From positions 11,368-75,367 of the forward strand of contig JBARVV010000042.1 of NCBI GenBank assembly GCA_049646445.1: DNA of 64,000 bases, in the 5' to 3' direction. The notes beneath the pieces are model-generated. The model saw only the letters and a list, made by a program, of their open reading frames with translations, did no database searches and was not told where the DNA came from. Below, in pieces: positions 19,613-33,800 of the stretch (the stretch's first letter is position 1; the number at the start of each line of letters is the position of its first letter). Both the position numbers and the translations under genes were made by a program. This DNA is from Nodosilinea sp. GTDB taxonomy: Bacteria; Cyanobacteriota; Cyanobacteriia; Phormidesmidales; Phormidesmidaceae.

Positions 19613-20542
19613 CTAGTAGGTGCGCGCAACAATGTAATCTGCGATCGCCAGCAGCGGCAGGCGCAAGTCGCCAAATCCGGCCAGGCTTTCTTTCGCGGCC
19701 TCAATCAGCTGGTTGGCCTGGCGGCGCGATTCGTCTAGACCCCAAAGACTAGGGTAAGTCACCTTCTGGGCGGTAATATCTTTGCCCACCGACTTACCCA
19801 GGGTTTCGGGGGTAGAGGTAATGTCGAGAATGTCATCGACAATTTGAAAAGCCAGACCAATGCGCTGGGCGTACTGGCGCAGATGATTGACATCGTCATC
19901 GCTGGCCCCGGCCAGCATGGCCCCAGAGGTGACCGAAATTTCGAGTAGCGCCGCCGTCTTGTGGTTGTGGATATAGGTGAGGGTTTCTAGGGTCACATCT
20001 GGGTTGCCCTCGCTGGCCAAATCGACAATCTGGCCCCCCACCAACCCTTCGCCGCCCACGGCTTTGCCCAGTCCGGCAATCACGCGCAGCATTTGCTCTG
20101 GGGCAGCCCCCCGAGTTTGGGTGGCTACGTGCTCAAAGGCGTAGGCCAGCAGGCCGTCGCCCGCCAAAATCGCCACGTCTTCGCCGTAGACCTTGTGATT
20201 GGTAAGGTGGCCCCGGCGGTAGTCGTCGTTATCCATGGCGGGCAGATCGTCGTGGATCAGCGACATGGTGTGGATCATCTCCAGGGCGCAGGCGGTAGGC
20301 ATGGCCATCTCGCTGCTGCCGCCAGCCAGTTCGCAGCTGGACAGACAGAGAATAGGCCGTAGCCGCTTGCCCCCCGCCAGCAGCGAGTAGCGCATGGCCT
20401 CGTAGAGCGTTTCGGGGTAGCGCAGGGCCAGGGCCTGGTCGAGGGCGACCTCGACCCGCTGACGCTGCTCTGCCAGGTAAACCTCCAGATCAAACTGGCC
20501 AGTAGGTGACGGTCTGGAATCGAGGGAGTTGGTTGGCACCAT
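19613..20542 (-). CDS. crtE: Geranylgeranyl diphosphate synthase (polyprenyl synthetase family)
   Basis: First DDxx(xx)D motif [17 protein letters not shown] and second motif FQIVDDILD. Confidence 0.85.
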
Positions 20543-20657
20543 AGCGGCAACAGGCAGGTTGAGAATAGATAAACAACAGGGCTGAACTGAAACAGGTCTG
20601 AACGGAGTCGTTCGCTCGACTGGCCTCTTAAATTAATTTAGAGGATTGATTTAGAGA

Positions 20658-21518
20658 TTAGAGTCGGCCGCGATAGCTGGTAACGGTGTTTTCAAGCAGC
20701 ATGGCCACCGTCATGGGGCCCACACCACCGGGCACTGGGGTAATGGCTCCCGCCACCGGCTGCACCGAGGCAAAGTCGACATCACCCACCAGCTTGGCTG
20801 ACCCATCGGGCTGCTCGACCCGATTGATGCCCACGTCAATGACCACGCTGTCGGGTTTAACATCGACCGCCGTAATCATGCCTGGGCGACCCACCGCCGC
20901 CACTAGAATATCAGCTTGCCGCATCAGCGCGGGCAAATCGATGGTGTGAGAATGGGCCAGGGTGACGGTGGCATTGGCCTCGATCAGCATCAGGGCCATG
21001 GGCTTGCCTACCAAAATACTTCGGCCTACCACCAGGGCGTTGGCCCCGACCAGGTTGATGTTGGCGGCCTCTAGCAGGCGGATGACGCCGTAGGGAGTGC
21101 AGCTGCGCAGGCCCGGTTCGCCGCGCACCAGCCGCCCTAGGTTAATGGGGTGCAGCCCGTCGGCGTCTTTATCGGGGTCAATGGTACTGAGCAGGGCGAC
21201 GGCATCGAGCTGTTCTGGCAGGGGTAGCTGCACCAGAATGCCGTCGACATTGGGGTCAGCGTTGAGCTGCTGCAGGAGGGAGGCGACCTCGGCCTGGGTG
21301 GCGGTGGCGGGCAGGTGTTTGCCATAGGAAGTAATACCTACGCGGCTACAGGCTCGCTCTTTGTTGCGCACGTAGGCGGCGCTGGCAGGGTTGTTGCCCA
21401 CCATTACCACCGCCAGCCCTGGGGGACGATAGCCCTGATCGGTGAGAGCTTGAATCTCCTGGGCTAGCTGGGCTTGAATTTGGTTGGCGAGGGCTTTGCC
21501 GTCTAGCAGTAGAGTCAT
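20658..21518 (-). CDS. folD: Bifunctional methylenetetrahydrofolate dehydrogenase/cyclohydrolase
   Basis: LDGKALA..., [22 protein letters not shown] and [14 protein letters not shown] motifs. Confidence 0.95.
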
Positions 21519-21711
21519 GGCCGGGTGCGCTAACCTGTATCTCGGATATCTCGATGTAGAGGGGGGTCGGCGCCCCGCAGCCAGGTTTTGCCAAAGCAGA
21601 GGATTCCGACGCTTTACAGTGTCTCAGATTTTGCTCCTCTGTTGCGTCCTTTTGTTGAGCTTCTTAGGGGCCAACGCGCCGGTTAAGTGCTGTAATCTCA
21701 CTCTTTATGAA

Positions 21712-22170
21712 ATGAAGGGCTCGATGACTGACCTAAAGCGCCGTTTAACTCGCTGGTTTACTCGCTATGGCATGGTTGGGGGCGGAGTTGGCTTAGCTCT
21801 GGTGGCGATGACCAGCTGCGGTGCCAGTCTCGATGCAGCGGTGGGCTATGGGCTGCGCGATCGCCTCAGCACCTGGCCCGGCCTGGCTCGTCTCGATCCG
21901 GTGACCCCGATCGCTGAAGCCAGCCAGAGCCAGCAGTCGCCGTTATATTTGGCGGGTATGGTAGAGCGGCAGCTGCCCCTGGTGGGCCAGGGACTCTACG
22001 AATTGGTGGATGAGTCGGGGGCCATTTGGGTGCTGAGCAGTGAGGCACCGCCCTCTGTCGGGACCTCGCTCGCCATTCAGGTTAACCTTCAGTACGAGCA
22101 GATTTTGCTGCAGGGTCAAGACATCGGCCAATACTATGCCCAAGAACTAGAGCGGCTGCCCCAAGACTAG
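21712..22170 (+). CDS. Hypothetical membrane-anchored or lipoprotein-like protein
   Basis: The ORF is open from 21484, but that part overlaps folD. The internal ATG at 21712 precedes a hydrophobic segment ending ..AMTSCG. No family recognised. Confidence 0.4.
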   Translation: MKGSMTDLKRRLTRWFTRYGMVGGGVGLALVAMTSCGASLDAAVGYGLRDRLSTWPGLARLDPVTPIAEASQSQQSPLYLAGMVERQLPLVGQGLYELVDESGAIWVLSSEAPPSVGTSLAIQVNLQYEQILLQGQDIGQYYAQELERLPQD

Positions 22171-22301
22171 CTGCCGCGACTAGGAAAATTTCCCTAATCG
22201 CCCAACGGCGTTCTTTCTCCGCTGCAGGGGCATGGAAAATGGTAGTCTCTTAGACATGCTGTGTTATAGACATTCAAACTGGTAGGAGAGGATTAGGGTA
22301 A

Positions 22302-22733
22302 ATGAAACAATTGGTTGGCCTACTCGTTGCGCTGGCAGTGCTGTTGGGTTGGGTGAGTAGCCCTGCTGTAGCGCAGCCCATTTCTGGAGCAGACCTCCTT
22401 AGCGCCCCCCTTGAGGCCACGGCCTGGCTGGCAGAAGCTTCGTCTCAAAATGCGGTCGACGCTAAATTAAACACCGAGTACGGCGCTAAACTCGACTTAA
22501 ACAATGCCAACGTGCAGGGCTTTAGCAAGTTTCCGGGCCTGTACCCCACCCTGGCTCGCAAAATTCTGCTCAACGCGCCCTATGAGAGCGTAGACGATGT
22601 TCTAGATTTGCCTGGGCTGAGCGAGCAGCAGCTCAATATTCTGAAGGCAAACCTCGACAACTTTACAGTTACTGTGCCTGACTCCGCTTTTACAGAAGGT
22701 GGCGATCGCTTTAACAACGGCGTTTATAAGTAG
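22302..22733 (+). CDS. psbU: Photosystem II 12-kDa extrinsic protein PsbU
   Basis: Signal peptide followed by [55 protein letters not shown], which is typical of PsbU. Confidence 0.9.
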
Positions 22734-22888
22734 GCAGCGGGTTGTTCCTCTGCTCACGCCTATTGGCCCTGGCTGGTCAAGTTGACCCTACCGGTCAACG
22801 ATGACTGGCTGGGGCCTTTAAATATTTATCCTTTTGTTCGAACCTCTATATACCCTTCAAATCATCACCACATAGTTGGGAGCTGCCC

Positions 22889-24571
22889 TTGACCAAGCCT
22901 GATTTAGCCTCAGCCCAGACCAACCGCTTTGATGTGTTGGTGATTGGGGGAGGGGCCGCTGGACTGTACGCTGCGCTGTCGGTTCCCCCCCAGTGGCGGA
23001 TCGGGCTGGTGACCAAAGACACCCTGTCGATTTCGGCTAGCGATTGGGCTCAGGGCGGGATTGCCGCGGCGATCGGGGCTGACGATGCGGTGTCGCTGCA
23101 CGTGACCGATACCCTGACAGCTGGAGCCGGGCTGTGTGATCCCAAAGCGGTAGAGCATTTGGCCAGCCATGCGTCTACCTGTATTGAGCGCCTGGTTGAT
23201 TTAGGCGTGGCCTTCGATCGCACCCAGGGCCAGCTGGCCATGACCCTGGAGGCAGCCCACTCGCGCCGCCGCGTGCTCCATGCCGCCGATACGACTGGCC
23301 GAGCGATCGTGTCGATACTGGCGGAGGCAGTGCTTCAGCAGCCCAATATCACCGTTTTTGAGCAGGCCTTTGCCCTCGACCTGTGGCTAGAGGCTGGCCG
23401 GTGTCGGGGCGCTTTGGTGGTGTACGATCAGCGGCTGTGCTGGCTGTCGGCCCAGGCTACGGTGCTGGCCACGGGCGGCGGCGGCCAGGTGTATGCCCAA
23501 ACCACTAACCCTGCGGCCAGCACGGGCGACGGGGTGGCGATGGCCTGGCGGGCCGGAGCGCAGCTGCGCGATCTGGAATTTGTCCAGTTTCACCCCACCT
23601 CGCTGGCTCAGCCGGGGGCACCGCCCTTTTTAATCAGCGAGGCGGTGCGCGGCGAGGGTGCCCATCTGGTCGATGGCCGGGGCGATCGCTTTGCCTTTGA
23701 GTACCATCCCGATGGCGAATTGGCCCCGCGCGACGTGGTCAGCCGGGCGATCTTTCACCACCTGCAAAAAACGGGCGATCGCCAGGTGTGGCTCGATCTG
23801 CGCCCAATTTCGCCCGATCGCGTGCAGTACCGCTTTCCCAATATTCTGCAGGTGTGTCGCAACTGGGGCTGGGATCCGCTGACTCAGCCTGTACCCGTTG
23901 CCCCCGCCGCCCACTACTGGATGGGGGGCATTACCACCGATATCCACAGCCAAACCTCAGTTCCGGGCCTTTATGCGGTGGGCGAAAACGCCAGCACGGG
24001 GGTGCACGGGGCCAACCGACTGGCCAGTAATTCGCTGCTAGAGTGCCTGGTCTACGGTGCTGAGCTAGCCCGCCTGCCGCTGCAGCCGGTGCCAGTCGAC
24101 CCAGCGCCAACGGCTGAACCGCCAACCGTATCCTCGCTAGATGTCTTAGCCCAGCCCTGGACTGAGATCACTGATGAGGTTGGGGCCGCCGTGCAGGAGC
24201 AGCGAGAGCGGCTAACTCTGCTGATGTGGGATGCAGCGGCCATTAGCCGCGACCAGGCCGGGCTTGAGGCTGCGATCGCCACCCTCAGCCAGTGGCGCAG
24301 CGATTGGCAACAGCACCCTCTACAAGCGCTCCACAATCTGCCGCCTGGGGCGAGCTACGCTTTACCAAAAGGGCTCAGCTGGCCGCTGGTGCGAGCCTGG
24401 GGCGAGCTGTGCAACCTGCACGACACTGCCTGGCTGATTCTTAACAGCGCCGCCTTTCGCACCGAGAGCCGGGGCGGCCACTTTCGCCAAGACTACCCCC
24501 ACCCCAGCCCTGAATGGCAGGTACATACAGTGGTCGAGGGCGATCGCTGGCAAAAATCTTCCTCCGTTTAG
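22889..24571 (+). CDS. nadB: L-aspartate oxidase
   Basis: FAD fingerprint FDVLVIGGGAAGL plus AQGGIAAA, HPT and GLYAVGE..TGVHGANRLASNSLLE motifs. TTG start. Confidence 0.9.
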   Translation: MTKPDLASAQTNRFDVLVIGGGAAGLYAALSVPPQWRIGLVTKDTLSISASDWAQGGIAAAIGADDAVSLHVTDTLTAGAGLCDPKAVEHLASHASTCIERLVDLGVAFDRTQGQLAMTLEAAHSRRRVLHAADTTGRAIVSILAEAVLQQPNITVFEQAFALDLWLEAGRCRGALVVYDQRLCWLSAQATVLATGGGGQVYAQTTNPAASTGDGVAMAWRAGAQLRDLEFVQFHPTSLAQPGAPPFLISEAVRGEGAHLVDGRGDRFAFEYHPDGELAPRDVVSRAIFHHLQKTGDRQVWLDLRPISPDRVQYRFPNILQVCRNWGWDPLTQPVPVAPAAHYWMGGITTDIHSQTSVPGLYAVGENASTGVHGANRLASNSLLECLVYGAELARLPLQPVPVDPAPTAEPPTVSSLDVLAQPWTEITDEVGAAVQEQRERLTLLMWDAAAISRDQAGLEAAIATLSQWRSDWQQHPLQALHNLPPGASYALPKGLSWPLVRAWGELCNLHDTAWLILNSAAFRTESRGGHFRQDYPHPSPEWQVHTVVEGDRWQKSSSV

Positions 24572-24654: not shown

Positions 24655-25209
24655 CTATTTCCGCTTCCCCGACCGAGACGATCGCCGTTTTAGCTTGGGC
24701 TGTGCTTTTCGTCGCTTTTTCTTGGCGGCTGACGACAGCCAATCGGCGGCGTAGTGGCTGAGCGCACCCAGCTCTAACCCAATCACCAGGGCCAGCCACC
24801 AGGGCCAGTAGGTGACTAACGCCCAGCTTAGCCCCTCCGCTAGGTCGCCCCAGCTCAGGGCGGTGCGCTGGGCGCTATTGAGCAAATCGACGATAAGGAT
24901 GCCGCCCAGGCCCAGCCACAGCGATAGGTACAGCACCCGCACCACGGTGCCAATAATTGGCCCATGCGACCAGCGCGATCGGTGGCGAATTTTGCCCCGG
25001 TAGGGCAGCCAGATCCATCGCAGCCAGCCCCAGCGCTTGTACTGTACCGAGTGAATGTCAAGATCGGGGCCAAGCACCCAGCCGCCCAGCATAAACCCCA
25101 GGCAAACTACTGCCGTGAGCCAGCCGCTGAGGGTAACGCGCAGCGCAACTAAGACCACCAGGGGCAAGGCCCAGAGAGTAATGCGATCGTGGGTGCGGCC
25201 TGAAGACAT
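24655..25209 (-). CDS. Putative metal-binding membrane protein (DUF2227-like)
   Basis: N-terminal SGRTHDRITLW followed by several TM helices and a basic tail. The family assignment is from memory only. Confidence 0.5.
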   Translation of the reverse strand: MSSGRTHDRITLWALPLVVLVALRVTLSGWLTAVVCLGFMLGGWVLGPDLDIHSVQYKRWGWLRWIWLPYRGKIRHRSRWSHGPIIGTVVRVLYLSLWLGLGGILIVDLLNSAQRTALSWGDLAEGLSWALVTYWPWWLALVIGLELGALSHYAADWLSSAAKKKRRKAQPKLKRRSSRSGKRK

Positions 25210-25443: not shown

Positions 25444-27030
25444 TTAGGTCTGGTCTTCCGATGTCACATCGACATCGACCCATTCATCGTCGTCCGATTC
25501 AACCAGGGGCAGAGCCGCAAAGAGAGAGGCGATCGCATCTCTGGACTGGTGCAGTTCGTGGCTAGAGAGCCGCCCAGTTTTGGTGTCGTTGACCACCAGA
25601 GACTGCTGTTGCCCCTTACCTTTTTCGGTGGCGGTAACTGTCAAAATGCCGTTGATGTCGAAGTCAAAATGCACTTCAACCTGCACCGCTCCGGCAGGCT
25701 TGGGCGGAATACCCTCGATCTGAAATACCCCCAGGGGCACATTTTCTTTCGCAATGGGGTTCTCTCCCTGAAACACTTCGATTTCGACGGTCTGTTGACC
25801 ATGGGAAGCTGTGCCATAGATCTCAGACCGAGAGGTGGGAATGACGGTATTGCGCGGAATAATGGTGCTAAACATGCCGGGCATAGGCCCCATGGCGGTG
25901 TCCATCACCGCCGCGATGCCGAGAGAATGGGGGCTAACATCCACCAAAATGCTGTCTACCGCCGCCCCAGACAGCACCCCGGCTTGTAATACCGCCCCCA
26001 TACCCACACAGAGATCGGGTTCAAAGCTGCTGACGGGGGTATGGGGTAAGTGATTTTCGACCAGGTGTTGCACTAGAGGAATGCGGGTTGAGCCCCCGAC
26101 CAAAATCGCCCGATCGATGTCGTCTGCGGTCATATCGGCATCGCTCAAGGCCCGGTCGATCGCGTCGAGGGTGCCGCTCAGTAGAGGTTTGATCAAATTT
26201 TCAAAGTCTTCCCGAGTGATGTCGAGTTCCAGGTGCAGAGCGGTTTCGCCCTTACGCCCTAAAAATGGCTCGCGCACCGTGGTAAACACATGCTCGCTCA
26301 GGGCAATTTTGGCTTGCTCAGCGGCTTGCAGCAGCCGCGCTTGGGTGGCCATATCGTTGGGGACTTCAGTGCCGTGAACCTGTAAGAAGCGGTCGGCCAG
26401 GTAAAGCTGCAGCTGGCGGTCAAAGTCATCGCCGCCAAGGCGATTATTGCCGTGGCTGGCCAGCACCTCGGTGACATCGCCAGTAATTTCGACAATGGAG
26501 ACATCGAAGGTACCCCCGCCCAGGTCATAGACCAGAACGTTTTCGCTATCTTCGCTGTCTAGGTCAAAGACCAGGGCTGCCGCTGTCGGTTCATTGAGAA
26601 TTTGTAGCACCTCAAAGCCAGCGATCTCCCCAGCTTCCTTGGTGGCCTGCCGTTGAGCATCGGTAAAGTAAGCCGGTACGGTAATTACGGCCTGGGGCAC
26701 CTCGGCTTCGAGCATGGCCTCGGCCCGCTGCTTGAGCGATCGCAGAATAATGGCTGAAATTTCCTGGGGTCGATAGGTGCGATCGCCCAGCGTGACGGTG
26801 TAGTCAGTCCCCATGTGCCGCTTAATCGATTTGACGGTGCGATCGGGGGCGGCCGCATACTGCCGCCAGGCCGACTGCCCAACCAGCAATTCCCCGCTGT
26901 CGCTCAGGCCCACGTAGGAGGGCAGCAACATCGTCCCATCCTCGTCAGGAATCACCCAGGGTTGTCCATCCTCCAGGGCGGCAATGATTGAATTCGTGGT
27001 GCCTAGATCGATACCGACAATGTTTCCCAT
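25444..27030 (-). CDS. Hsp70-family ATPase, short form (NBD plus beta-sandwich substrate domain, no helical lid), acidic C-terminal tail
   Basis: Contains GIDLGTTNS, VITVPAYF, DLGGGTFDVS, VGGSTRIP and the linker/SBD segment VDVSPHSLG. The protein stops ~35 aa after the SBD-beta region, at 528 aa versus the ~630 aa I remember for DnaK. Confidence 0.9.
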   Translation of the reverse strand: MGNIVGIDLGTTNSIIAALEDGQPWVIPDEDGTMLLPSYVGLSDSGELLVGQSAWRQYAAAPDRTVKSIKRHMGTDYTVTLGDRTYRPQEISAIILRSLKQRAEAMLEAEVPQAVITVPAYFTDAQRQATKEAGEIAGFEVLQILNEPTAAALVFDLDSEDSENVLVYDLGGGTFDVSIVEITGDVTEVLASHGNNRLGGDDFDRQLQLYLADRFLQVHGTEVPNDMATQARLLQAAEQAKIALSEHVFTTVREPFLGRKGETALHLELDITREDFENLIKPLLSGTLDAIDRALSDADMTADDIDRAILVGGSTRIPLVQHLVENHLPHTPVSSFEPDLCVGMGAVLQAGVLSGAAVDSILVDVSPHSLGIAAVMDTAMGPMPGMFSTIIPRNTVIPTSRSEIYGTASHGQQTVEIEVFQGENPIAKENVPLGVFQIEGIPPKPAGAVQVEVHFDFDINGILTVTATEKGKGQQQSLVVNDTKTGRLSSHELHQSRDAIASLFAALPLVESDDDEWVDVDVTSEDQT

Positions 27031-27106
27031 GGGGGCCTACCCTCTTCATTGAACACAGTACATAGTTTATGGGATGACTTGATTGGGATAGCTTGATTGG
27101 GATGGA

Positions 27107-27661
27107 TTATTGATTCGATTCATCCGGAGCCACCGCTACAATCACCTGCGCCTCCCTCAGCACCCGGTCTTGCCAGCGATAGCCGCGTACCACCTCCTGC
27201 ACCACGGTGTTGGGGGTACAACTGGCATCTACCTGCTGTCCTAGGGCGTGCATTTGGGTCGGGTCAAAGGGGCATCCTTGGGACGGCATGGGCACGATCT
27301 GATGCTGGCTCAGTACCGTCAGCATGGAGTCACGAATTAGGTCCAATCCCTGCCGGGCACTGGTGACCACTTCGGCAAGGCTGTCAGACTGTTCAGACTG
27401 TTCGGGCTGTTCGGGCTGTTCGGACTGGGGACTGGGGCTAATCAGCGGGCACTGGGTCAGCCATTGCCGCCACCGTTGCCACCGGGTCAGTGCCGTAGGC
27501 GACTTCGGCTGAGCAAGCCGGTGCGAGTCTTCCGCCTGGTGCCAGTGATCAGCGGCTCGATCGAGGTCATCGATCACGCTCAACAGATCTCGCAGCAGGG
27601 TTTCCTGCTGTTTGCGCAGCTGAATTTTTTGATTGGCAAGGTCTCTAGGCGATCGGGTCAT
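27107..27661 (-). CDS. GrpE-like nucleotide-exchange factor (divergent, short)
   Basis: The C-terminal segment FDP..H.A......NTVVQEVVRGYRWQDRVLREAQVIVA resembles the GrpE beta-domain. The gene sits between the J-protein and Hsp70 genes. Confidence 0.65.
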   Translation of the reverse strand: MTRSPRDLANQKIQLRKQQETLLRDLLSVIDDLDRAADHWHQAEDSHRLAQPKSPTALTRWQRWRQWLTQCPLISPSPQSEQPEQPEQSEQSDSLAEVVTSARQGLDLIRDSMLTVLSQHQIVPMPSQGCPFDPTQMHALGQQVDASCTPNTVVQEVVRGYRWQDRVLREAQVIVAVAPDESNQ

Positions 27662-27716
27662 AGATGGGTAGAGGCTGTAGACTTCAACAATTTGGGTTAC
27701 GTTGGCACCAGCTAGC

Positions 27717-28010
27717 CTAAAACGTCAGCCGGATTAGATCCTCTAAGGTAACATCCACGGCGGCGATCGCCTGCTGCTGTAGCTGGTCTAGCAGAGCCTG
27801 ATCGAGTTCAGCCTGAATGGGCACAACCGCAAAAAAATCTGCCTCTCCCTGGGGTGCTTTGCGGAGAGCCTCGTAGGCGGCGCGAATCGCTTTGAAGTCT
27901 TGAGGATGGGTATGGGCCGGGAATTCTTTGAGTTTGGCGTGGTAAGCGGCTTTGATCTCAGCGGGGGCGGCCCCAGGCGACAGACCCAGGCGATCGTAAT
28001 GGTCTTGCAT
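27717..28010 (-). CDS. Stand-alone J-domain protein (97 aa) with HPQ in place of HPD
   Basis: DHYDRLGLSPGAAPAEIKAAYHAKLKEF..HTHPQDFKAIRAAYEAL follows the J-domain helix II-loop-helix III pattern. Confidence 0.8.
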   Translation of the reverse strand: MQDHYDRLGLSPGAAPAEIKAAYHAKLKEFPAHTHPQDFKAIRAAYEALRKAPQGEADFFAVVPIQAELDQALLDQLQQQAIAAVDVTLEDLIRLTF

Positions 28011-28054
28011 AGGTGCAGATGGCTGTATGTTATGGGGTCAAGGCTGGCTCAGAA

Positions 28055-30547
28055 CTAGAGCTCGTACCAGGGTTTGCGCTTCTTAGTCGATGGTTTCCCC
28101 CGCCCTGGCGGCGGCGGCAGGAAGAAGGGTGGAAAATCATCCTCTTCCTCGTCATCAAAATCATCGTCAAAGGGGTTAGCGCCTCCGCCCGTTTGGGCGA
28201 TCAGTTCCGGCAGCATCTGAGCGATCAGCTCGGGGGGCACGGTTTCGCCAAGGCTCTCCTGGGCCATCCGCTGGATGATGTCAATCATATTGATCGGGCC
28301 TAGATTGCCCACCGATCCCATTTGGCTACCCACCGCTCGGCGGGTCATCTCCTGGGCCTTAAACCACTCTTCTTCGCGACAGGCTTGCAGGGCGGCCGCA
28401 TCTTGCAGGCGGCGGGCAATCTCAAAGCTCTGGTCATAGAGCTCTTGGTACGCTTGGGAATGGCGGGGATGCAGCGTCGCTTTAGCCAGCAGCAGCAGGG
28501 GATTTTGGGGCTCCTGGCGGAGCTGCGCTTCGATCAGAGGTGCAAAGGCCCGGTTGGGGCCAAACCAGCTGAGCTGCAGCTGAGCCTGGGCCAGCAGATG
28601 CCCCGGCTGGGGCGATCGCCGCAGTGCTCCGGTGACGGCAGATTCAAAGCGTTCGGCAGATAGGCTCTTCAGGGGCAGCAGCGTCAGGTGAGCCAGGTTG
28701 GCCTCGGGGGCGGTGCCAATCAGATCAACGATCTGTTGAGCATAGCGATTTTGCTGGGCTACGATGCCCTTTTGGTTGCGCCGGGCGTGGTGCTGAATGA
28801 TCAGATAGATGGCTTTCAGGATCTCGACTTGCTCGCTGGGAGAGTGCGATCGCAGCAGTTCATCCCACTTCGGCACGGCGGCTTCCAGGTCAAGGCTAAT
28901 TTTCTGACTACTGCTGGGGGCATCCTGGGCTGAGTCTAGAAAGATTTGCAGCGCTTTGAGCGGTGGCGTCGGCGTTGTGTGGTCGGTTACAAAGTCTGCC
29001 ATCACCCCATAGTGTTGAAAGCTAAGGGCCTCTACCCATTCGGGGATCTCGACCTCAGTATCTACGCCGGTATCGCCGAAGTGCTTACCAAACTTGCGCC
29101 GCACCGATTTCAGCGTCGCTTTGTCCCCCTCCAGACATTTGGTCAGCGCCATATAGACCTCCTCATACCGGCACCCTGCCTCCAGAGCCTGGGTGAGCAG
29201 CGGTATGGCCTCTTGCTTTTTACGGTCGGCAAACAACTGCATCCCCTTGCGGCCAATCACCTCGGGGTGATCAGGGGCCAACTGCTCGGCCTTGCGCACG
29301 CTCCGGTCGGCATCGCGAGCGCGGCCCAAGCCCATCTGGTGATCCGCTAGCCAGCAGTACAGCTTCGCCTCGGTGGCATTTAAACGCTGCTTAGGCCAAG
29401 CTTGCTGGTCACGCGTAGCGGCTTTTTTCACCCAGTTCAGCAGCTGGTTGACCAATTGCTGAGCCGCCCGCAAATCTCGGGTCATCGACAGCACCGGGTA
29501 AAGCTGTACCGCCAGCTGGGGGTCAAACTCGGGCTGGTCTACGACCCCGCCCCAAAAGGAGGCCGTACAGCCCAGCTCTTGTTCCTGCAAGGCCTGCTGT
29601 CCCGCCAAGAGCATCAGGGGCCGATAGAGCGTTTTTAGCTCTGAGTAGTCCCTCATCACCTCTTTAGGAAAATCGAGGACGACGTGGGCCGCGTCGTGAA
29701 AATTGTCTTCCCGCAGATGGTATAGCAGTTCTAGAACCCAGGCCGCACTGCGGTGAGGCAGGTTCGGCTGGTCGAGATCACACACGTCGTCTATGCGGCG
29801 ACCGCTATGGCTGGCCAGGGCCAGGCGTAACGGCTGAACGGCAGGATGTTTAGGCCCCATGGCTTGAAAAGCTAGGCCACCGAAGGCGGGTGAGGGTATA
29901 CCCAGCAGGCGTCTGGCCCTGGGCCAATCTTCCAGCATTCGGTAAGCGTAGGCTTGCCAAACCAGCAAACTGTCACCAGGGCTAGCCAGTCGGCCCATCT
30001 TTTTGAAGTGCGTCAGGGCCGCGTTTGGGTCGCTGGCCTGCAGGGCCAAAGCCCCCCTAGCCCAGTGAAGGTGGGGGGCATAAAACCGCTTGGCCTGGCT
30101 TTTAACCAAGTTCTCCACCTGCTCAACCTGGTGATTAAGCAACAGCAGCTTTAGGTAGCAGCCCCCCAAATCCTTAGGCAGCGTTTTGCTATCAAAGGCA
30201 GACTTAAATAGATCCAGGGCTTCAGCCGCTTTATTTTGAGCCAGGTAGCATTTGGCCAACCAGTAGTAGGCATCTTCCTGCGGATCTAGGGCCAGCGCTT
30301 GGCCAAAGGAATTCTCGGCTTTGGTATACCGGGCGCGCTCATACTCGTACTGGCCTTGCTGTAGCCAGATATCGGCCTCAGTAATGCTGACAACCTGGTC
30401 AGGATCTCGCTTTTGAGCCTGCTGGAGCTTCCGTAGCGCTTGGGAATATCGGTTTTGCGCTATTAAGCCCTGCAGCTGCTTTTCTAAAGCTGGGCTAGCT
30501 GCTGTTTGAGAATTTTGCTGGCTGCCTACGCGCTTAGCCATGATCAA
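28055..30547 (-). CDS. Large all-helical TPR-like repeat protein (830 aa) with an acidic then basic C-terminal tail
   Basis: N-terminal TPR-like repeats (e.g. AENSFGQALALDPQEDAYYWLAKCYLAQNKAAEALDLF) and the tail FDDDFDDEEEDDFPPFFLPPPPGRGKPSTKKRKPWYEL. It is the first gene of the Hsp70 cluster. Confidence 0.7.
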   Translation of the reverse strand: MIMAKRVGSQQNSQTAASPALEKQLQGLIAQNRYSQALRKLQQAQKRDPDQVVSITEADIWLQQGQYEYERARYTKAENSFGQALALDPQEDAYYWLAKCYLAQNKAAEALDLFKSAFDSKTLPKDLGGCYLKLLLLNHQVEQVENLVKSQAKRFYAPHLHWARGALALQASDPNAALTHFKKMGRLASPGDSLLVWQAYAYRMLEDWPRARRLLGIPSPAFGGLAFQAMGPKHPAVQPLRLALASHSGRRIDDVCDLDQPNLPHRSAAWVLELLYHLREDNFHDAAHVVLDFPKEVMRDYSELKTLYRPLMLLAGQQALQEQELGCTASFWGGVVDQPEFDPQLAVQLYPVLSMTRDLRAAQQLVNQLLNWVKKAATRDQQAWPKQRLNATEAKLYCWLADHQMGLGRARDADRSVRKAEQLAPDHPEVIGRKGMQLFADRKKQEAIPLLTQALEAGCRYEEVYMALTKCLEGDKATLKSVRRKFGKHFGDTGVDTEVEIPEWVEALSFQHYGVMADFVTDHTTPTPPLKALQIFLDSAQDAPSSSQKISLDLEAAVPKWDELLRSHSPSEQVEILKAIYLIIQHHARRNQKGIVAQQNRYAQQIVDLIGTAPEANLAHLTLLPLKSLSAERFESAVTGALRRSPQPGHLLAQAQLQLSWFGPNRAFAPLIEAQLRQEPQNPLLLLAKATLHPRHSQAYQELYDQSFEIARRLQDAAALQACREEEWFKAQEMTRRAVGSQMGSVGNLGPINMIDIIQRMAQESLGETVPPELIAQMLPELIAQTGGGANPFDDDFDDEEEDDFPPFFLPPPPGRGKPSTKKRKPWYEL

Positions 30548-30892: not shown

Positions 30893-33800
30893 CTAGGCCA
30901 GCAGCATGAGGGGGTTGTCTCTACCGCTGAGAAAGCAGGTCTCAATGTCAGCCGCTGGCAGGGGTTTAGAGAATAAATAGCCCTGCCCCAGTTCGCAGTT
31001 GAGCTGCTGCAGTCGCGCCAGCTGGGGCTGGGTTTCGATACCCTCGGCGGTGACGGTCAAGCCCAGCTGCTGGCCCAGGGTAATAATGGTATCGACGACT
31101 TTGTATTTGGAGGTCAAGACTTGAATTTGGTTGGTAAACGATCGATCGATTTTGAGGTCGTTGACCAAAAACCGGTGCAGGTAGCCCAGGGAGGAATAGC
31201 CGGTGCCAAAGTCGTCGATGCTGATCTGAATCTGCCGCGATCGCAGGGCTTCCACTAGGTCAATGGCGGTTTCGGCATTGTCCATAATGGCGCTTTCGGT
31301 AATTTCTAGCTTGAGCCGGGCGGGGTTGATGCCGGTGGCGGCCAGAATCTGGTCAATATCGTCGAGCAGGGTGGGGCAGGCAAACTGCCGCACCGACAGG
31401 TTGACGCTCATGGTTAGATCGCTCCAGCCCTTCTGCTGCCAGCGGTGCAGCTGTTGACAGGCCAGCTTGAGAATTAGCAGGCCCACCGGCACCACCAGCC
31501 CGGTGGTTTCCATCAGGGGAATAAACTCGCCGGGGGAGACCAGACCCCGGCTGGGGTGCTGCCAGCGCACCAGCGCCTCAAAACCCACAACTTTAAGGGT
31601 TTTGAGGTGGACAATGGGCTGGTAGTACACCACAAATTCCTGGCGTTCGAGGGCGCGCTTGAGGTCATTTTCGAGGGCCAGGCGATCCACCATGGTTTGG
31701 TGCATTTCCGGGTCAAAAAATTGATAGCTGCCGGCCCCCTGCTGCTTGGCTCGGTACATGGCAACGCCAGCATCCTGGAGGAACTGCTCGGGGCAGGAGT
31801 AGTCGCTGTGGCCGAGGACAATCCCTAGACAGGCGGTGATAAAAATATCCAGCCCTGACGCGGTAAAGGGGGCCTTGAAGCTGTCTAAAATGGTTTGGAT
31901 CAGCGATTCGATGCGCTCTATATCGCTGGTTTGGCGCAGCAAAATGCAGAACTCGTTGCCCCCCAGGCAGGCCAGCAGCCCGTCGCTGGGCACCAGCTGC
32001 TGGAGCCGCTCTGCGATCGCCCTGAGCAGCTGATTGCTAAGGGCATAGCCAAAGGAACCGTTGATCAGCTTGAACTGGTCGCAGTCGAGGTAGATCACCG
32101 CAAGGGCCGAACGTTCACCCTGAAGCAGTCCGGTCAGAGTCTGGATCAGGGCGGCCCGGCTGGGCAGCTGAGTCAAGGCATCTTGGGAAATGATCGTCTG
32201 GAGCTGGGCCGTACGCTCTAGCACCTTGGCTTCAAGCTGGGCGTTAAAGGTTTCTAGCTGCCGGTACTGATCCCGCAGCAGCAGCATCGATTGCACCCTG
32301 GCGATCAGCTCTAGCCGGTTGATCGGCTTGCTAATAAAGTCGTTGGCCCCGGCGCTAAAGCAGCGGGCGAGGTCCTGTTTTTCGCTCAGGGCCGTCACCA
32401 TAATGACGGGCAGGGTGGCCCAGGTGGGCGAAGATTTGATCTGGCGGCAAACCTCAAACCCGTCGAGGCCGGGCATCATGACATCGAGCAAAACTAGGTC
32501 GGGTTCTAGGGAGTCTAGGGCAGCGATCGCCGATTCCCCCGTGCTGACGTAGTGCAGTTGATAACCCTGGACGTCGAGCAGAGTTTCGATCACATCAAAG
32601 TTATTGGGGTCGTCGTCAATGATCAAAATAGAGGGTGGCATGGGTTTATGGGTGAGTGAGGGGGTAGATGGCGCAAGGGGGGTGAGCAGGTGCTGAATGG
32701 CCGTAGCCAGCTGACTGAGCTTCAGCGGTTTGTCCAGGTGGTGGCTAGCCCCGGCTGTCAGGCAGCGATTGCGATCGATCGCCGCACTGCCTTCGGTGAG
32801 CGCAAGAATTGGGCGATCTACCAGGTGCGGGATGTCGCGGATACGGCGAATCGCCTCCAGGCCATCTAGCCCCGGCAGCGGCATATCGATCACGATCTGA
32901 TCGGGATTTTCGGCCTGGGCCAGAGCGATGGCTGCTTCGCCCCGGCGGGCGACCAGCAGGCGGTAGCCCTTAGCGGTTAAGTAGTTGACCACGGTGCTAA
33001 TCGTGTCCTCCTGGTCGCTCGCCAGCAGAATCAGGGGTGATAGCTGGGGCTGGGCGGCGGTCGGGGGGATACCCGTCGCGGCGGCATGCAGGTTGGCTGG
33101 TCGTAGTCCGGCCCCCAGGTCGTAGGGCAGGTCGATGGTAAAACAGCTGCCGCCCCCGACCTCACTGGTCAACCCCACCTGGCCACCGTGCAGCTCGGTG
33201 ATTTGCTTCACCAGGGTGAGGCCCAGCCCCGTGCCCTGGTACTGGCGGTTGAGGGCGCTGTCGATCTGAATGAAGGGTTGAAACAACGTTTGCCGGTCGT
33301 CGGGTGCAATACCAATGCCCGTGTCGCTAATGGTAAAGCGCATCATAGGCTGGGTTTCGTCGCCGGTTTGGCCCAGCTTCGGCGCGACCGTCAGGCTGAT
33401 ACGGCCCCCCTCGGGGGTAAATTTGACCGCGTTGGTGAGCAGGTTGATCAAAACCTGGCGGATGCGGCGCTCATCGATCACCAGGTCAGGCAGGTTGGGA
33501 AAAATGCAGTCCAGGAGCTGAATACGTTTTTTGTCGGCCTGATGCTGCACAAAGGTAAGGCTCGACTGGCACAGGGGCGCGATCGCCGTAGGAGTCAGGT
33601 GCAGGGAAATCTGGCCCGACTCAATTTTGGCCACATCGAGAATATCGTTGATCAGCGCCAGCAGGTGGGAGGCGCTGGTTTCTACGGTGGTGAGAGCCTT
33701 GAGCTGGCGATCGTTGATCGCACCAAACACCTGCTCTTGCAGCCCCTCGGTCATGCCCAAAATGGCGTTGAGCGGCGTGCGGAGTTCGTGGCTCATGTTG

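What the first reader, a model, noticed from the sequence alone, without database searches (positions are those of the whole stretch)
25444..30547. Self-contained non-canonical Hsp70 machine: TPR scaffold, mini J-protein, short GrpE-like protein and lidless Hsp70 in one operon
Four co-directional minus-strand genes are separated by only 44, 55 and 76 bp. Every component departs from the housekeeping DnaK-DnaJ-GrpE set. The Hsp70 is 528 aa with intact ATPase motifs and a beta-sandwich domain but no helical lid. The J-protein is a bare 97-aa J-domain with no Gly/Phe, zinc-finger or client-binding domains. The GrpE-like protein is 184 aa, and only its C-terminal beta-domain signature is recognisable. 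The operon opens with an 830-aa all-helical TPR-like protein that has no counterpart in the classical system. E. coli HscC-DjlC is a known lid-shortened Hsp70 with its own J-partner, but as far as I know it has neither a dedicated exchange factor nor a TPR partner. The arrangement suggests a dedicated remodelling or targeting machine in which the TPR protein supplies client or localisation specificity. I cannot name a described system with this four-gene composition.
Basis: partly seen in the sequence, partly recalled or inferred. Interest (0 to 1): 0.72.

Follow-up and report, generated by a model that had tools for sequence, protein, structure and literature searches.

The report
Private Hsp70 chaperone cassette with TPR scaffold
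Four adjacent genes encode a specialised Hsp70 chaperone with its own trigger protein, its own nucleotide-exchange factor and a large helical-repeat scaffold; the same gene set recurs in dozens of cyanobacteria and in an unrelated phylum, and I found no paper describing it.

Summary
Four minus-strand ORFs, separated by 44, 55 and 76 bp, encode an 830-aa (probably 828-aa) TPR solenoid, a 97-aa J-like protein, a 184-aa GrpE-like protein and a 528-aa Hsp70.

The order TPR→J→GrpE→Hsp70 is kept in 54 of 80 cyanobacterial genome loci, while the flanking genes differ. Distant copies in SAR324 and related bacteria (21-26% TPR identity) carry the same cassette plus a fifth gene for a small zinc-ribbon/TPR protein.

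The window holds a reduced form. Its clade has lost three things together: the fifth gene, the Hsp70 C-terminal helical domain, and about 80 N-terminal residues of GrpE.

The J protein has a J fold but no HPD motif. Cyanobacteria have invariant FPAH paired with Hsp70 Gln at the position of DnaK Arg167. Non-cyanobacterial copies keep xPD paired with Arg. This covariation falls at the canonical J-Hsp70 contact.

The most likely reading is an insulated, dedicated Hsp70 cycle working on a TPR platform. The client is unknown. No description was found in the literature searched. I class it as a new variant of a known kind.

The parts
28055..30547 (-). Large TPR-like solenoid protein (830 aa from TTG; probable true start ATG at 30541, 828 aa). 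It has about 42 helices spanning residues 17-786, followed by a disordered acidic-then-basic tail.
   Evidence: ORF. Pfam TPR_2, TPR_19 and TPR_16. There are 239 homologues of about 830 aa, and all the named ones are cyanobacterial. AF2 mean pLDDT 86, all-helical. Foldseek finds only generic long TPR scaffolds (Ctr9, Ski3, TTC21B, Naa15, OGT/SPY) at TM 0.15-0.24.
27717..28010 (-). J-like protein of 97 aa. Residues 1-55 form a J fold in which HPD is replaced by invariant FPAH. Residues 56-97 are a conserved extension ending in LIRLTF.
   Evidence: Pfam DnaJ 30.1 bits. Alignment of 77 orthologues. HMMER alignment to DNAJA1. AF2 model (pLDDT 80) with helices 2-8, 16-29, 36-51, 71-85 and 89-96. 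The top Foldseek hits are J-domains, rmsd about 2-2.5 A over about 54 residues.
27107..27661 (-). Truncated GrpE-like nucleotide-exchange factor of 184 aa. It lacks the long N-terminal helix, has an insertion of about 55 aa (with a WxxW motif) in the four-helix-bundle region, and has a conserved C-terminal beta domain.
   Evidence: Pfam GrpE 94 bits. It falls below all NCBIfam GrpE equivalog cut-offs. Alignments to GrpE structures 4ANI, 3A6M and 1DKG. Family alignment. The longest possible ORF is 184 aa here, against about 250-260 aa in Nostocales.
25444..27030 (-). Lidless Hsp70 of 528 aa. It comprises a complete nucleotide-binding domain, a hydrophobic linker (SILVD), SBD-beta, a helix of about 20 aa and an acidic tail. 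It has Gln at the position of DnaK Arg167.
   Evidence: Pfam HSP70 E=7.5e-153, model positions 1-506 of 599. PDB phmmer alignment to DnaK of Geobacillus. Catalytic residues D8, K70, E171, D194, T199 and D201 are invariant, and R167 is Q in 56 of 56. C-terminal comparison.
27031..27106 (-). GrpE-Hsp70 intergenic spacer (76 bp).
   Evidence: No terminator-like site on the minus strand here.
27662..27716 (-). J-GrpE intergenic spacer (55 bp).
   Evidence: No minus-strand terminator-like site.
28011..28054 (-). TPR-J intergenic spacer (44 bp).
   Evidence: No minus-strand terminator-like site.

Best explanation
This is a dedicated, self-contained Hsp70 chaperone cycle that is insulated from the housekeeping DnaK/DnaJ/GrpE network.

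The Hsp70 is an active ATPase with an intact peptide-binding beta-sandwich but no lid latch. The 97-aa J-like protein docks at the canonical J-domain site on the Hsp70 (NBD lobe IIa and linker), but through a rewired contact: His paired with Gln replaces the Asp35-Arg167 pair of DnaJ-DnaK. As a result it probably couples only to its cognate Hsp70.

The GrpE-like protein resets the nucleotide state.

The large TPR solenoid is always encoded immediately upstream of the J protein. It most likely acts as the platform. Together with the J protein it forms a split equivalent of TPR+J co-chaperones such as DNAJC7 or DNAJC3, and it brings a specific client or assembly (still unknown) to the Hsp70.

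The window carries a streamlined form. Its lineage has lost, together, three parts: the fifth component (a zinc-ribbon/TPR protein), the Hsp70 C-terminal helical domain that this protein probably binds, and the long GrpE helix that in canonical systems reaches towards the substrate-binding domain.

Shown: domain identities, conserved cassette, covariation, correlated losses. Inferred: physical contacts, the activator role of the J protein, the platform role of the TPR protein, and the existence of a specific client.
For: - Cassette conservation. The order TPR→J→GrpE→Hsp70 is complete in 54 of 80 cyanobacterial loci from many orders. None of the window's flanking genes recurs in any of these loci, not even in a Nodosilinea relative with 79% TPR identity.
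- Spread beyond cyanobacteria. The same cassette plus a fifth gene occurs in SAR324, in 'Deltaproteobacteria bacterium TL4' and in metagenomic contigs. There the proteins are only 21-26% (TPR), 31-36% (J), 26-28% (GrpE) and 52-55% (Hsp70) identical to the window's, and the flanks are again unrelated.
- Tight gene spacing. Genes are tightly spaced, and in two loci (L081, L083) the last two genes overlap by 4 nt.
- ATPase competence. D8, K70, E171, D194, T199 and D201, the hydrophobic linker, and pocket residues I401, V436 and I438 are conserved in 56 of 56 orthologues.
- J fold. Supported.
- Covariation. Cyanobacteria pair a J loop of FPAH (77 of 77) with Hsp70 Q167 (56 of 56). Non-cyanobacterial copies pair xPD with R167 (5 of 5). 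From my own knowledge of PDB 5NRO and the DnaK R167H / DnaJ D35N suppressor genetics, D35-R167 is the key J-Hsp70 contact.
- Correlated losses. The fifth gene is present in 25 of 25 testable loci whose Hsp70 carries the helical ...LYY C-terminus, and in none of about 30 short-form loci. The GrpE N-terminal ~80 residues are present in those same long-form loci and absent from nearly all short-form ones (L028 is an apparent exception).
- TPR structure. The TPR protein is a confident continuous solenoid resembling scaffold subunits.
- No sign of recent transfer or internal termination. No minus-strand terminator-like sites lie in the three spacers, and GC content matches the surroundings.
Against: - No expression, interaction or phenotype data exist. 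Every physical contact is inferred.
- The His of HPD is essential for ATPase stimulation in every characterised J-domain, and it is absent from the whole family. The J-like protein could therefore be a regulator or an adaptor rather than an activator.
- The covariation is a single evolutionary event (cyanobacteria versus the rest), so it is suggestive rather than statistical.
- In several Nostocales the Hsp70 (with gene 5) is separated from TPR-J-GrpE by 1-6 kb of unrelated genes, or lies outside the fetched flank. Strict co-transcription is therefore not universal.
- Copies on plasmids (Acaryochloris, and a 40-kb Nostoc plasmid beside an integrase and a transposase) and variable flanks give the cassette an accessory-gene flavour.
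- No client is identified.
Confidence: 0.58

Rival explanations
1. The cassette is a biological-conflict (anti-phage or abortive-infection type) module. The Hsp70, GrpE and J machinery would act as an NTP-dependent switch that thresholds or assembles a TPR-based sensor. This would be analogous to the HSP70/GrpE-containing GTPase systems predicted by Kaur, Burroughs, Iyer and Aravind (eLife 2020).
For: - That paper describes neighbourhoods with HSP70 and GrpE in which a partner protein is fused to DnaJ or to TPR repeats, enriched in multicellular prokaryotes.
- The flanks of the cassette vary even between close relatives.
- Copies occur on plasmids, and one lies next to an integrase and an IS607 transposase.
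- In Nostocales the GrpE-Hsp70 gap has acquired orthocaspase-like, endonuclease-like and PIN-like genes, identified by reading their N-terminal sequences only.
- One non-cyanobacterial locus has an extra Hsp70 plus Hsp70-DUF3731 pair upstream, and another has a vWA protein upstream.
Against: - There is no GTPase, no recognisable effector (nuclease, protease, pore-former, TIR and so on) and no hypervariable component in the cassette.
- PADLOC gives no hit for the TPR, J or GrpE proteins, and only a marginal one for the Hsp70 (E=9e-4).
- There is no homologue in phage genomes.
- Sequence identity tracks cyanobacterial taxonomy, and each listed genome locus shows one TPR match, as expected for a mostly vertically inherited cellular function.
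- GC content is not atypical.
Confidence: 0.12
2. The TPR solenoid is itself the client rather than an adaptor. The Hsp70, J and GrpE set would be a private assembly or disassembly factor controlling the oligomeric state, the localisation or the disordered tail of the TPR protein, comparable to Hsc70/auxilin acting on clathrin.
For: - The TPR protein ends in a conserved disordered tail with hydrophobic and basic stretches (PPFFLPP...KKRK). AF2 leaves this tail unstructured. Such segments are typical Hsp70 binding sites.
- The four genes are inherited as one unit with no fifth conserved partner in the window's clade.
- A lidless Hsp70 is better suited to acting on exposed segments of folded proteins than to folding.
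Against: - The tail differs completely in the non-cyanobacterial homologues, so it is not a family-wide client element.
- No evidence for oligomerisation was obtained.
- The hypothesis cannot be separated from the adaptor model with sequence data alone.
Confidence: 0.15
3. The J-like protein is not an ATPase activator. It would be an HPD-less regulatory or structural subunit, as Pam16 is for Pam18 or Ssz1 is in the ribosome-associated complex. The Hsp70 would then work mainly as an ATP-regulated holdase, or would be triggered by some other, unlinked J-protein.
For: The His of HPD is missing from the whole family, and the Asp is also missing in cyanobacteria. From established knowledge, mutating either residue abolishes stimulation in canonical J-domains. 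Cyanobacteria encode many other J-proteins; 14 are reported for N. punctiforme in PMC9239167.
Against: - The FPAH / xPD loop is invariant within each clade and covaries with Hsp70 residue 167. This argues for a functional contact at the canonical site.
- The R167Q change in the Hsp70 should weaken coupling to canonical HPD J-domains, which makes an unlinked canonical trigger less likely.
Confidence: 0.12

Closest known systems
Housekeeping DnaK-DnaJ-GrpE system
   Same: It has the same three protein families: an Hsp70 with conserved catalytic residues, hydrophobic linker and SBD-beta pocket; a J fold; and the GrpE four-helix-bundle helix and beta domain, including the Gly equivalent to E. coli G122.
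   Different: - The Hsp70 has no lid and no lid latch (R467 is replaced by A), and it has Q at position 167.
- The J protein has no HPD, Gly/Phe region, zinc finger or client-binding domains.
- The GrpE lacks the long N-terminal helix.
- An obligatory ~830-aa TPR partner is present.
- All components score below the NCBIfam equivalog cut-offs.
E. coli HscC with DjlC/DjlB (specialised Hsp70 with its own J partner; from my own knowledge)
   Same: Both are atypical Hsp70s encoded next to a dedicated J-protein and thought to be insulated from DnaJ and GrpE.
   Different: As far as I know, HscC has no dedicated exchange factor and no TPR partner, and its J partners keep HPD. I could not compare the sequences directly, because no HscC sequence or HscC model surfaced in the searches here.
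TPR+J co-chaperones DNAJC7 (Tpr2) and DNAJC3 (p58IPK), and TPR-clamp co-chaperones Hop, CHIP and Tom70 (from my own knowledge)
   Same: In those proteins a TPR array N-terminal to a J-domain recruits clients or Hsp70/Hsp90 tails. Here the gene order TPR→J mirrors that domain order. The Hsp70s of this family end in acidic tails (...EEE...NESE), reminiscent of EEVD.
   Different: - Here the TPR and J parts are separate polypeptides.
- The solenoid is far larger, about 42 helices.
- No carboxylate-clamp signature was identified.
- Foldseek similarity is generic (TM 0.15-0.24).
HPD-less J-like proteins (Pam16/Tim16; from my own knowledge)
   Same: They have a J fold without a functional HPD and act within a dedicated Hsp70 machine.
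   Different: Pam16 works by pairing with a true J-protein (Pam18). No second J-protein is encoded in this cassette, and here the altered loop covaries with the Hsp70.
GAP1-N2 GTPase-centred conflict systems with HSP70 and GrpE (Kaur et al., eLife 2020, PMC7159879)
   Same: HSP70 and GrpE are linked to a partner carrying DnaJ or TPR modules.
   Different: Those systems are defined by a GTPase and an FNIII-repeat protein and occur mainly in actinobacteria and firmicutes. No GTPase or FNIII protein is in or near this cassette.
DnaK1-DnaJ3-GrpE system linking type IV pili to polysaccharide secretion in Nostoc punctiforme (McDonald et al., mBio 2022, PMC9239167)
   Same: It is a specialised cyanobacterial Hsp70 system with a dedicated J partner.
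   Different: dnaK1 lies between the genome's canonical grpE and dnaJ11, and DnaJ3 is encoded elsewhere. No TPR protein is involved. The locus architecture is different.

Membership tests
Hsp70 (Pfam PF00012) | Actin-like nucleotide-binding domain with the catalytic residues (DnaK D8, K70, E171, D194, T199, D201) | tested here: met
   Pfam E=7.5e-153. All six residues are invariant in 56 of 56 orthologues.
Hsp70 (Pfam PF00012) | Hydrophobic interdomain linker and SBD-beta peptide pocket | tested here: met
   The linker is (S/A)ILVD, and I401, V436 and I438 are conserved. The alignment to DnaK runs through SBD-beta.
Hsp70 (Pfam PF00012) | Alpha-helical lid (SBD-alpha) with a latch to SBD-beta | tested here: not met
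   The Pfam match ends at model position 506 of 599. Only about 20 helical residues and an acidic tail follow SBD-beta, and the latch residue R467 is replaced by A.
DnaK proper (NCBIfam equivalogs NF001413, TIGR02350, NF009946, NF009947) | Score above the curated equivalog cut-off | tested here: not met
   Scores against cut-offs are 568 vs 648, 562 vs 822, 513 vs 1019 and 548 vs 1002 bits. RefSeq names the orthologues 'Hsp70 family protein'.
J-domain (Pfam PF00226) | Helical J fold (helices I to III, or I to IV) | tested here: met
   The Pfam score is 30.1 bits against a cut-off of 27.8. The AF2 model has helices 2-8, 16-29 and 36-51. The top Foldseek hits are J-domains, with rmsd about 2-2.5 A over about 54 residues.
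J-domain (Pfam PF00226) | His-Pro-Asp motif in the loop between helices II and III | tested here: not met
   The loop is invariant FPAH in 77 cyanobacterial orthologues. It is (Y/F/S/H)(T/P/S)PD in the non-cyanobacterial relatives.
GrpE (Pfam PF01025) | C-terminal beta domain and four-helix-bundle helices | tested here: met
   The Pfam score is 94 bits against a cut-off of 25.8. Residues 98-176 align to the beta domains of 4ANI, 3A6M and 1DKG, and residues 18-39 align to the LLPVxDxLxRA helix.
GrpE (Pfam PF01025) | Long N-terminal paired helix (thermosensor, reaches towards the Hsp70 SBD) | tested here: not met
   About 12 residues (at most ~17) precede the bundle helix, and the longest possible ORF is 184 aa. 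The helix is present in Nostocales (about 250-260 aa) and in non-cyanobacterial (241-309 aa) members of the same cassette family.
TPR solenoid | Repeated helix-turn-helix hairpins forming a superhelix | tested here: met
   Pfam TPR_2, TPR_19 and TPR_16 pass their cut-offs. The AF2 all-alpha model has pLDDT 86. The best Foldseek matches are TPR scaffolds.
GAP1-N2 GTPase / HSP70 conflict systems (Kaur et al. 2020) | TRAFAC-class GTPase and FNIII-repeat protein linked to HSP70 and GrpE | tested here: not met
   No such gene is in the window neighbourhood, in the 80 cyanobacterial loci or in the six non-cyanobacterial loci. The system is described.
Known anti-phage defence systems (PADLOC-DB 2.0) | Match to a defence-system protein model | tested here: not met
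   There are no hits for the TPR, J or GrpE proteins. The Hsp70 has only a marginal hit to candidate PDC-M61B (E=9e-4, 16 bits).
Cyanobacterial DnaK1/DnaJ3/GrpE motility system | dnaK1 flanked by canonical grpE and dnaJ11; J partner DnaJ3 encoded elsewhere | tested here: not met
   The architecture described in PMC9239167 differs from TPR→J→GrpE→Hsp70.

The most novel reading that the evidence does not exclude
A previously unrecognised, ancient five-component Hsp70 machine: a large TPR platform, an HPD-less J trigger, a private GrpE, an Hsp70 with an idiosyncratic C-terminus, and a zinc-ribbon/TPR escort. It is shared by cyanobacteria and SAR324-like bacteria. It uses an orthogonal, HPD-independent J-Hsp70 coupling (His-Gln in place of Asp-Arg) to run an ATP-driven remodelling reaction on a specific, still unknown cellular assembly, without cross-talk to the general chaperone network.
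Probability: 0.45. Interest if true: 0.8.

Novelty: new variant of a known kind. Interest (0 to 1): 0.68.

Why it matters
Bacterial Hsp70 biology is built almost entirely on DnaK, HscA and HscC. This cassette would add a widely conserved, self-contained Hsp70 system whose specificity factor is a giant TPR solenoid.

Its J partner works, if it works at all, without the HPD motif that is regarded as universal for Hsp70 activation.

The natural His/Gln versus Asp/Arg covariation gives a directly testable case of how paralogous Hsp70/J pairs become insulated from each other.

The clade-specific joint loss of the lid-like domain, the GrpE long helix and the fifth gene is a natural experiment on which parts of the Hsp70 cycle depend on each other.

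Identifying the client could uncover an unknown cellular process in cyanobacteria.

Tried and rejected
- **DnaK1/DnaJ3/GrpE motility system (PMC9239167).** I recalled it as a candidate. Its locus architecture is different, so I rejected it.
- **Synechocystis slr0086 ('similar to DnaK').** I followed this as a possible orthologue. Papers report only expression changes, and its sequence was not obtainable here, so the lead is unresolved.
- **Kaur et al. conflict systems.** These are an analogy only, because no GTPase or FNIII protein is present.
- **PADLOC and phage collections.** Neither gave a meaningful hit.
- **Foldseek of the TPR model.** It returned only generic TPR scaffolds at low TM, so it gives no functional clue.
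- **Weak Pfam EAD11 hit (E=0.16) at the TPR N-terminus.** I treated it as noise.
- **Domain-fusion search among divergent TPR homologues.** P0381, with a 230-aa N-terminal extension, showed no informative domain.
- **Promoter and terminator scan.** Counts were at the level expected by chance, so it was uninformative beyond showing no terminator-like sites in the spacers.
- **Conserved flanking genes.** None were found.
- **Reviews of bacterial Hsp70 systems and of DnaK paralogues.** Neither mentions this cassette.
- **A correction to my own earlier reading.** My first family alignment of GrpE used start codons chosen to match the window's length, so it understated the N-terminal extension in Nostocales. 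I corrected this with longest-ORF lengths and RefSeq annotation.

Full report
**What is in the window**

One search shows four co-directional minus-strand ORFs at exactly the reported coordinates:
- 28055-30547, 830 aa
- 27717-28010, 97 aa
- 27107-27661, 184 aa
- 25444-27030, 528 aa

They are separated by 44, 55 and 76 bp. Pfam assigns them to TPR (TPR_2 E=1e-15), DnaJ (30.1 bits against a cut-off of 27.8), GrpE (94 bits) and HSP70 (E=7.5e-153, model positions 1-506 of 599).

None reaches an NCBIfam equivalog cut-off for DnaK, DnaJ or GrpE. RefSeq accordingly names the orthologues 'Hsp70 family protein', 'DnaJ domain-containing protein', 'nucleotide exchange factor GrpE' and 'tetratricopeptide repeat protein'.

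The TPR gene probably starts at the ATG at 30541, giving 828 aa. The identical database protein has that length, and homologues begin MAKR.

GC content is the same as in the surroundings. No terminator-like site lies on the minus strand in the three spacers.

**The cassette is conserved; its surroundings are not**

A profile-guided scan of one genome per prokaryotic species found 149 loci encoding a relative of the TPR protein. The 80 best are all cyanobacteria. They include Nodosilinea, Leptolyngbya, Phormidesmis, Oculatella, Acaryochloridaceae, Chroococcidiopsis and many Nostocales.

tblastn with the four window proteins shows the order TPR→J→GrpE→Hsp70 on one strand in nearly every locus long enough to contain it. 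Fifty-four loci have all four genes complete.

None of the window's flanking genes has a homologue in any of these loci, not even in a Nodosilinea genome with 79% TPR identity. The flanking genes are a DUF2227 protein, nadB, psbU, folD and two giant sensor kinases. All-against-all clustering of the flanks finds no other widely shared family except the one described next.

**A fifth gene, and a reduced form in the window**

In 25 loci (Nostocales, Chroococcidiopsis, Oculatella and some unnamed lineages) a 120-160-aa protein is encoded immediately after the Hsp70. It has a CPVC...CRRC zinc ribbon and two or three TPRs.

These are exactly the loci whose Hsp70 is about 585 aa. That longer Hsp70 carries an extra helical C-terminal region ending in ...DFLYYxxxNExE. 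The one further long-form locus is cut by the end of the fetched DNA.

None of the roughly 30 short-form loci has the fifth gene, and the window is one of them.

The long-form loci also have a GrpE-like protein of about 250-260 aa, with about 80 additional N-terminal residues. In the window's clade the longest possible ORF is mostly 163-198 aa, and 184 aa in the window itself (RefSeq annotation).

They are not features of the whole family.

From established structures (1DKG, 4ANI), the GrpE long helix points towards the Hsp70 substrate-binding domain. Its loss together with the lid-like region is therefore mechanistically coherent. This is an inference.

**The cassette exists outside cyanobacteria**

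An exhaustive HMMER search with the TPR profile against 1.84 billion representative proteins gave 74 representatives at E<1e-30. It also gave a tail of full-length (820-875 aa) but very divergent relatives.

Three of these are from SAR324 cluster bacteria and from 'Deltaproteobacteria bacterium TL4'.

Five of their contigs carry the complete five-gene cassette: TPR (841-874 aa) → DnaJ-like (98-101 aa) → GrpE (241-309 aa) → Hsp70 (581-594 aa) → small TPR protein (122-137 aa). The genes are tightly spaced, and in two loci the last two overlap by 4 nt. The flanks are again unrelated. A sixth contig ends after the GrpE gene.

Identity to the window proteins is 21-26% (TPR), 31-36% (J), 26-28% (GrpE) and 52-55% (Hsp70).

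Conservation of gene content and order at this divergence is strong evidence for one functional unit.

**Anatomy of the Hsp70**

I checked its length (638 aa) and its landmark residues. The region around residue 167 is independently confirmed by the HMMER alignment to Geobacillus DnaK.

The catalytic residues D8, K70, E171, D194, T199 and D201 are invariant in 56 of 56 orthologues. So are a hydrophobic linker, (S/A)ILVD, and the pocket residues I401, V436 and I438.

The residues characteristic of the family, present in the cyanobacterial and the non-cyanobacterial cassette Hsp70s alike, are R467A (the lid-latch arginine), D481N, F426Y and L392V. This supports a single origin for the cassette Hsp70.

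After SBD-beta the window protein has only a helix of about 20 residues and an acidic tail.

**Anatomy of the J-like protein, and the covariation**

AlphaFold2 (pLDDT 80) models helices at 2-8, 16-29 and 36-51. The top Foldseek hits are J-domains at rmsd of about 2-2.5 A.

The loop between helices II and III is FPAHTH. Across 77 cyanobacterial orthologues EFPAH is invariant, and no HPD exists. HMMER aligns this loop to the HPD of DNAJA1.

In the five non-cyanobacterial cassettes the loop is YTPD, FPPD or SPPD. The His is again missing, but the Asp is kept.

Hsp70 position 167 is Gln in all 56 cyanobacterial orthologues and Arg in all five non-cyanobacterial ones. This is the Arg that contacts DnaJ Asp35 in the DnaK-J-domain structure 5NRO, and whose R167H change suppresses DnaJ D35N; both statements are from my own knowledge.

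Asp/Arg has thus been replaced by His/Gln on both partners at once. This is one evolutionary event, so it is not statistical proof. It is, however, what direct contact at the canonical interface predicts. It also implies that the cyanobacterial pair is poorly compatible with canonical HPD J-proteins and R167 DnaKs.

The C-terminal 40 residues of the J-like protein, ending in LIxLTF, are conserved across phyla. They are a candidate docking element.

**Anatomy of the GrpE-like and TPR proteins**

The GrpE-like protein aligns to solved GrpE structures over two regions: the beta domain, and the LLPVxDxLxRA helix of the four-helix bundle. It keeps the Gly equivalent to E. coli G122. Between the bundle helices it has a family-specific insertion with a W-rich motif, which is also present in shorter form in the non-cyanobacterial members.

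AlphaFold2 models the TPR protein with mean pLDDT 86. Residues 17-786 form an uninterrupted solenoid of about 42 helices, followed by a disordered acidic-then-basic tail.

Foldseek against the PDB returns only long TPR scaffolds: Ctr9, Ski3, IFT-A TTC21B, Naa15, OGT/SPY and APC/C subunits. TM-scores are 0.15-0.24. This shows a scaffold-like architecture and no specific relative.

**Most likely mechanism**

I consider the following most likely, with confidence about 0.58. It is a private Hsp70 cycle.
- The J-like protein engages its cognate Hsp70 at the canonical site through the rewired contact.
- The GrpE-like protein exchanges nucleotide.
- The TPR solenoid is encoded directly upstream of the J gene, in the same order as the domains of the TPR+J co-chaperones DNAJC7 and DNAJC3. 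It serves as the platform that brings a specific client or assembly to the machine.
- In the five-gene form, the zinc-ribbon/TPR protein probably binds the Hsp70 C-terminal helical/LYY region, because the two are always gained or lost together.

The domain identities, conservation, covariation and correlated losses are shown. All physical contacts, the activator role of the J protein and the existence of a specific client are inferred.

**Rivals**

(a) A conflict or defence module in the sense of Kaur et al. 2020.
- For: variable flanks; plasmid copies in Acaryochloris and on a 40-kb Nostoc plasmid beside an integrase and an IS607 transposase; variable insertions (orthocaspase-like, endonuclease-like, PIN-like by N-terminal sequence) between GrpE and Hsp70 in Nostocales.
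- Against: no GTPase or effector, no PADLOC hits and no phage homologues, and identity that tracks taxonomy.

(b) The TPR protein is itself the client.

(c) The HPD-less J protein is a regulator rather than an activator.

These cannot be separated without experiments.

**Comparison with the literature**

Seven full-text searches found no description of this cassette. I also read the most relevant papers: PMC9239167, PMC7159879, PMC11019930 and PMC8215388.

The DnaK1/DnaJ3/GrpE motility system of Nostoc punctiforme is a different locus, in which dnaK1 lies between the canonical grpE and dnaJ11.

The searchable library omits most subscription-journal papers, so an existing description cannot be fully excluded.

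**Verdict**

The finding is a new variant of a known kind of system (Hsp70 / J-protein / exchange factor) with several unusual features:
- an obligatory giant TPR partner
- loss of HPD, with compensatory change in the Hsp70
- a fifth zinc-ribbon/TPR component in the ancestral form
- a naturally streamlined version in the window

Interest: 0.68.

Noticed in passing
window 30541-30547: The longest ORF of the TPR gene starts at TTG 30547 (MIMAKR...). The identical database protein is 828 aa and homologues start MAKR, so the real start is probably the ATG at 30541.
   Followed up: partly
L031:13641-14027 and 24 other loci; L081:13724-14095; L088:14479-14931: A fifth cassette gene encodes a 120-160-aa zinc-ribbon (CPVC...CRRC) plus TPR protein directly after the Hsp70. 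It is present only where the Hsp70 has the helical ...LYY C-terminus, and it is absent from the window's clade. It may be an Hsp70-tail binding or escort factor.
   Followed up: partly
L054:11850-15000, L046:11900-17300, L059:11660-15150, L064:12038-13136, L058:4155-5942: In several Nostocales the gap between the GrpE-like gene and the Hsp70 gene holds 1-6 kb of unrelated, variable genes. Judged by their N-terminal sequences alone (no profile search run), these look like orthocaspase-like, Uma2-type endonuclease-like and PIN-domain proteins. The gap looks like an insertion hot-spot that splits the cassette into two modules (TPR-J-GrpE, and Hsp70 with gene 5).
   Followed up: partly
L083:554-5277: In one non-cyanobacterial metagenomic contig the cassette is preceded by two more divergent Hsp70-like genes. 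One (963 aa) carries a C-terminal DUF3731 'DNA-K related' domain. In another contig (L084:82-1053) a vWA protein precedes the cassette.
   Followed up: partly
L088 (Nostoc sp. UHCC 0302 plasmid, 40 kb); L089 and L090 (Acaryochloris plasmids): Complete cassettes lie on plasmids. The Nostoc one sits next to a tyrosine recombinase and an IS607 transposase. Acaryochloris sp. 'Moss Beach' has copies on three plasmids. At least one of these (pMB01) appears to be decaying: the TPR gene is split and no Hsp70 is annotated.
   Followed up: partly
window 30893-36781 (-) and 37204-41955 (+): Two very large multidomain sensor proteins flank the cassette on the upstream side, divergently oriented. One is 1962 aa; read by eye from its translation, it has receiver, PAS, histidine-kinase, GGDEF-like (GGNEF) and EAL regions. 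The other is 1583 aa with CBS, multiple PAS, HisKA, HATPase and receiver domains (Pfam). Neither is conserved next to the cassette elsewhere.
   Followed up: partly
window 24655-25209 (-): A DUF2227 'metal-binding' membrane protein gene lies 234 bp downstream of the Hsp70 on the same strand. It has no homologue in any of the 80 related loci, so it is not part of the cassette.
   Followed up: yes
window 19613-24571: Ordinary housekeeping genes lie downstream: polyprenyl synthase, folD, psbU and an L-aspartate oxidase-like flavoprotein. This confirms a cyanobacterial chromosomal context, and the closest relatives of the cassette proteins are Nodosilinea.
   Followed up: partly
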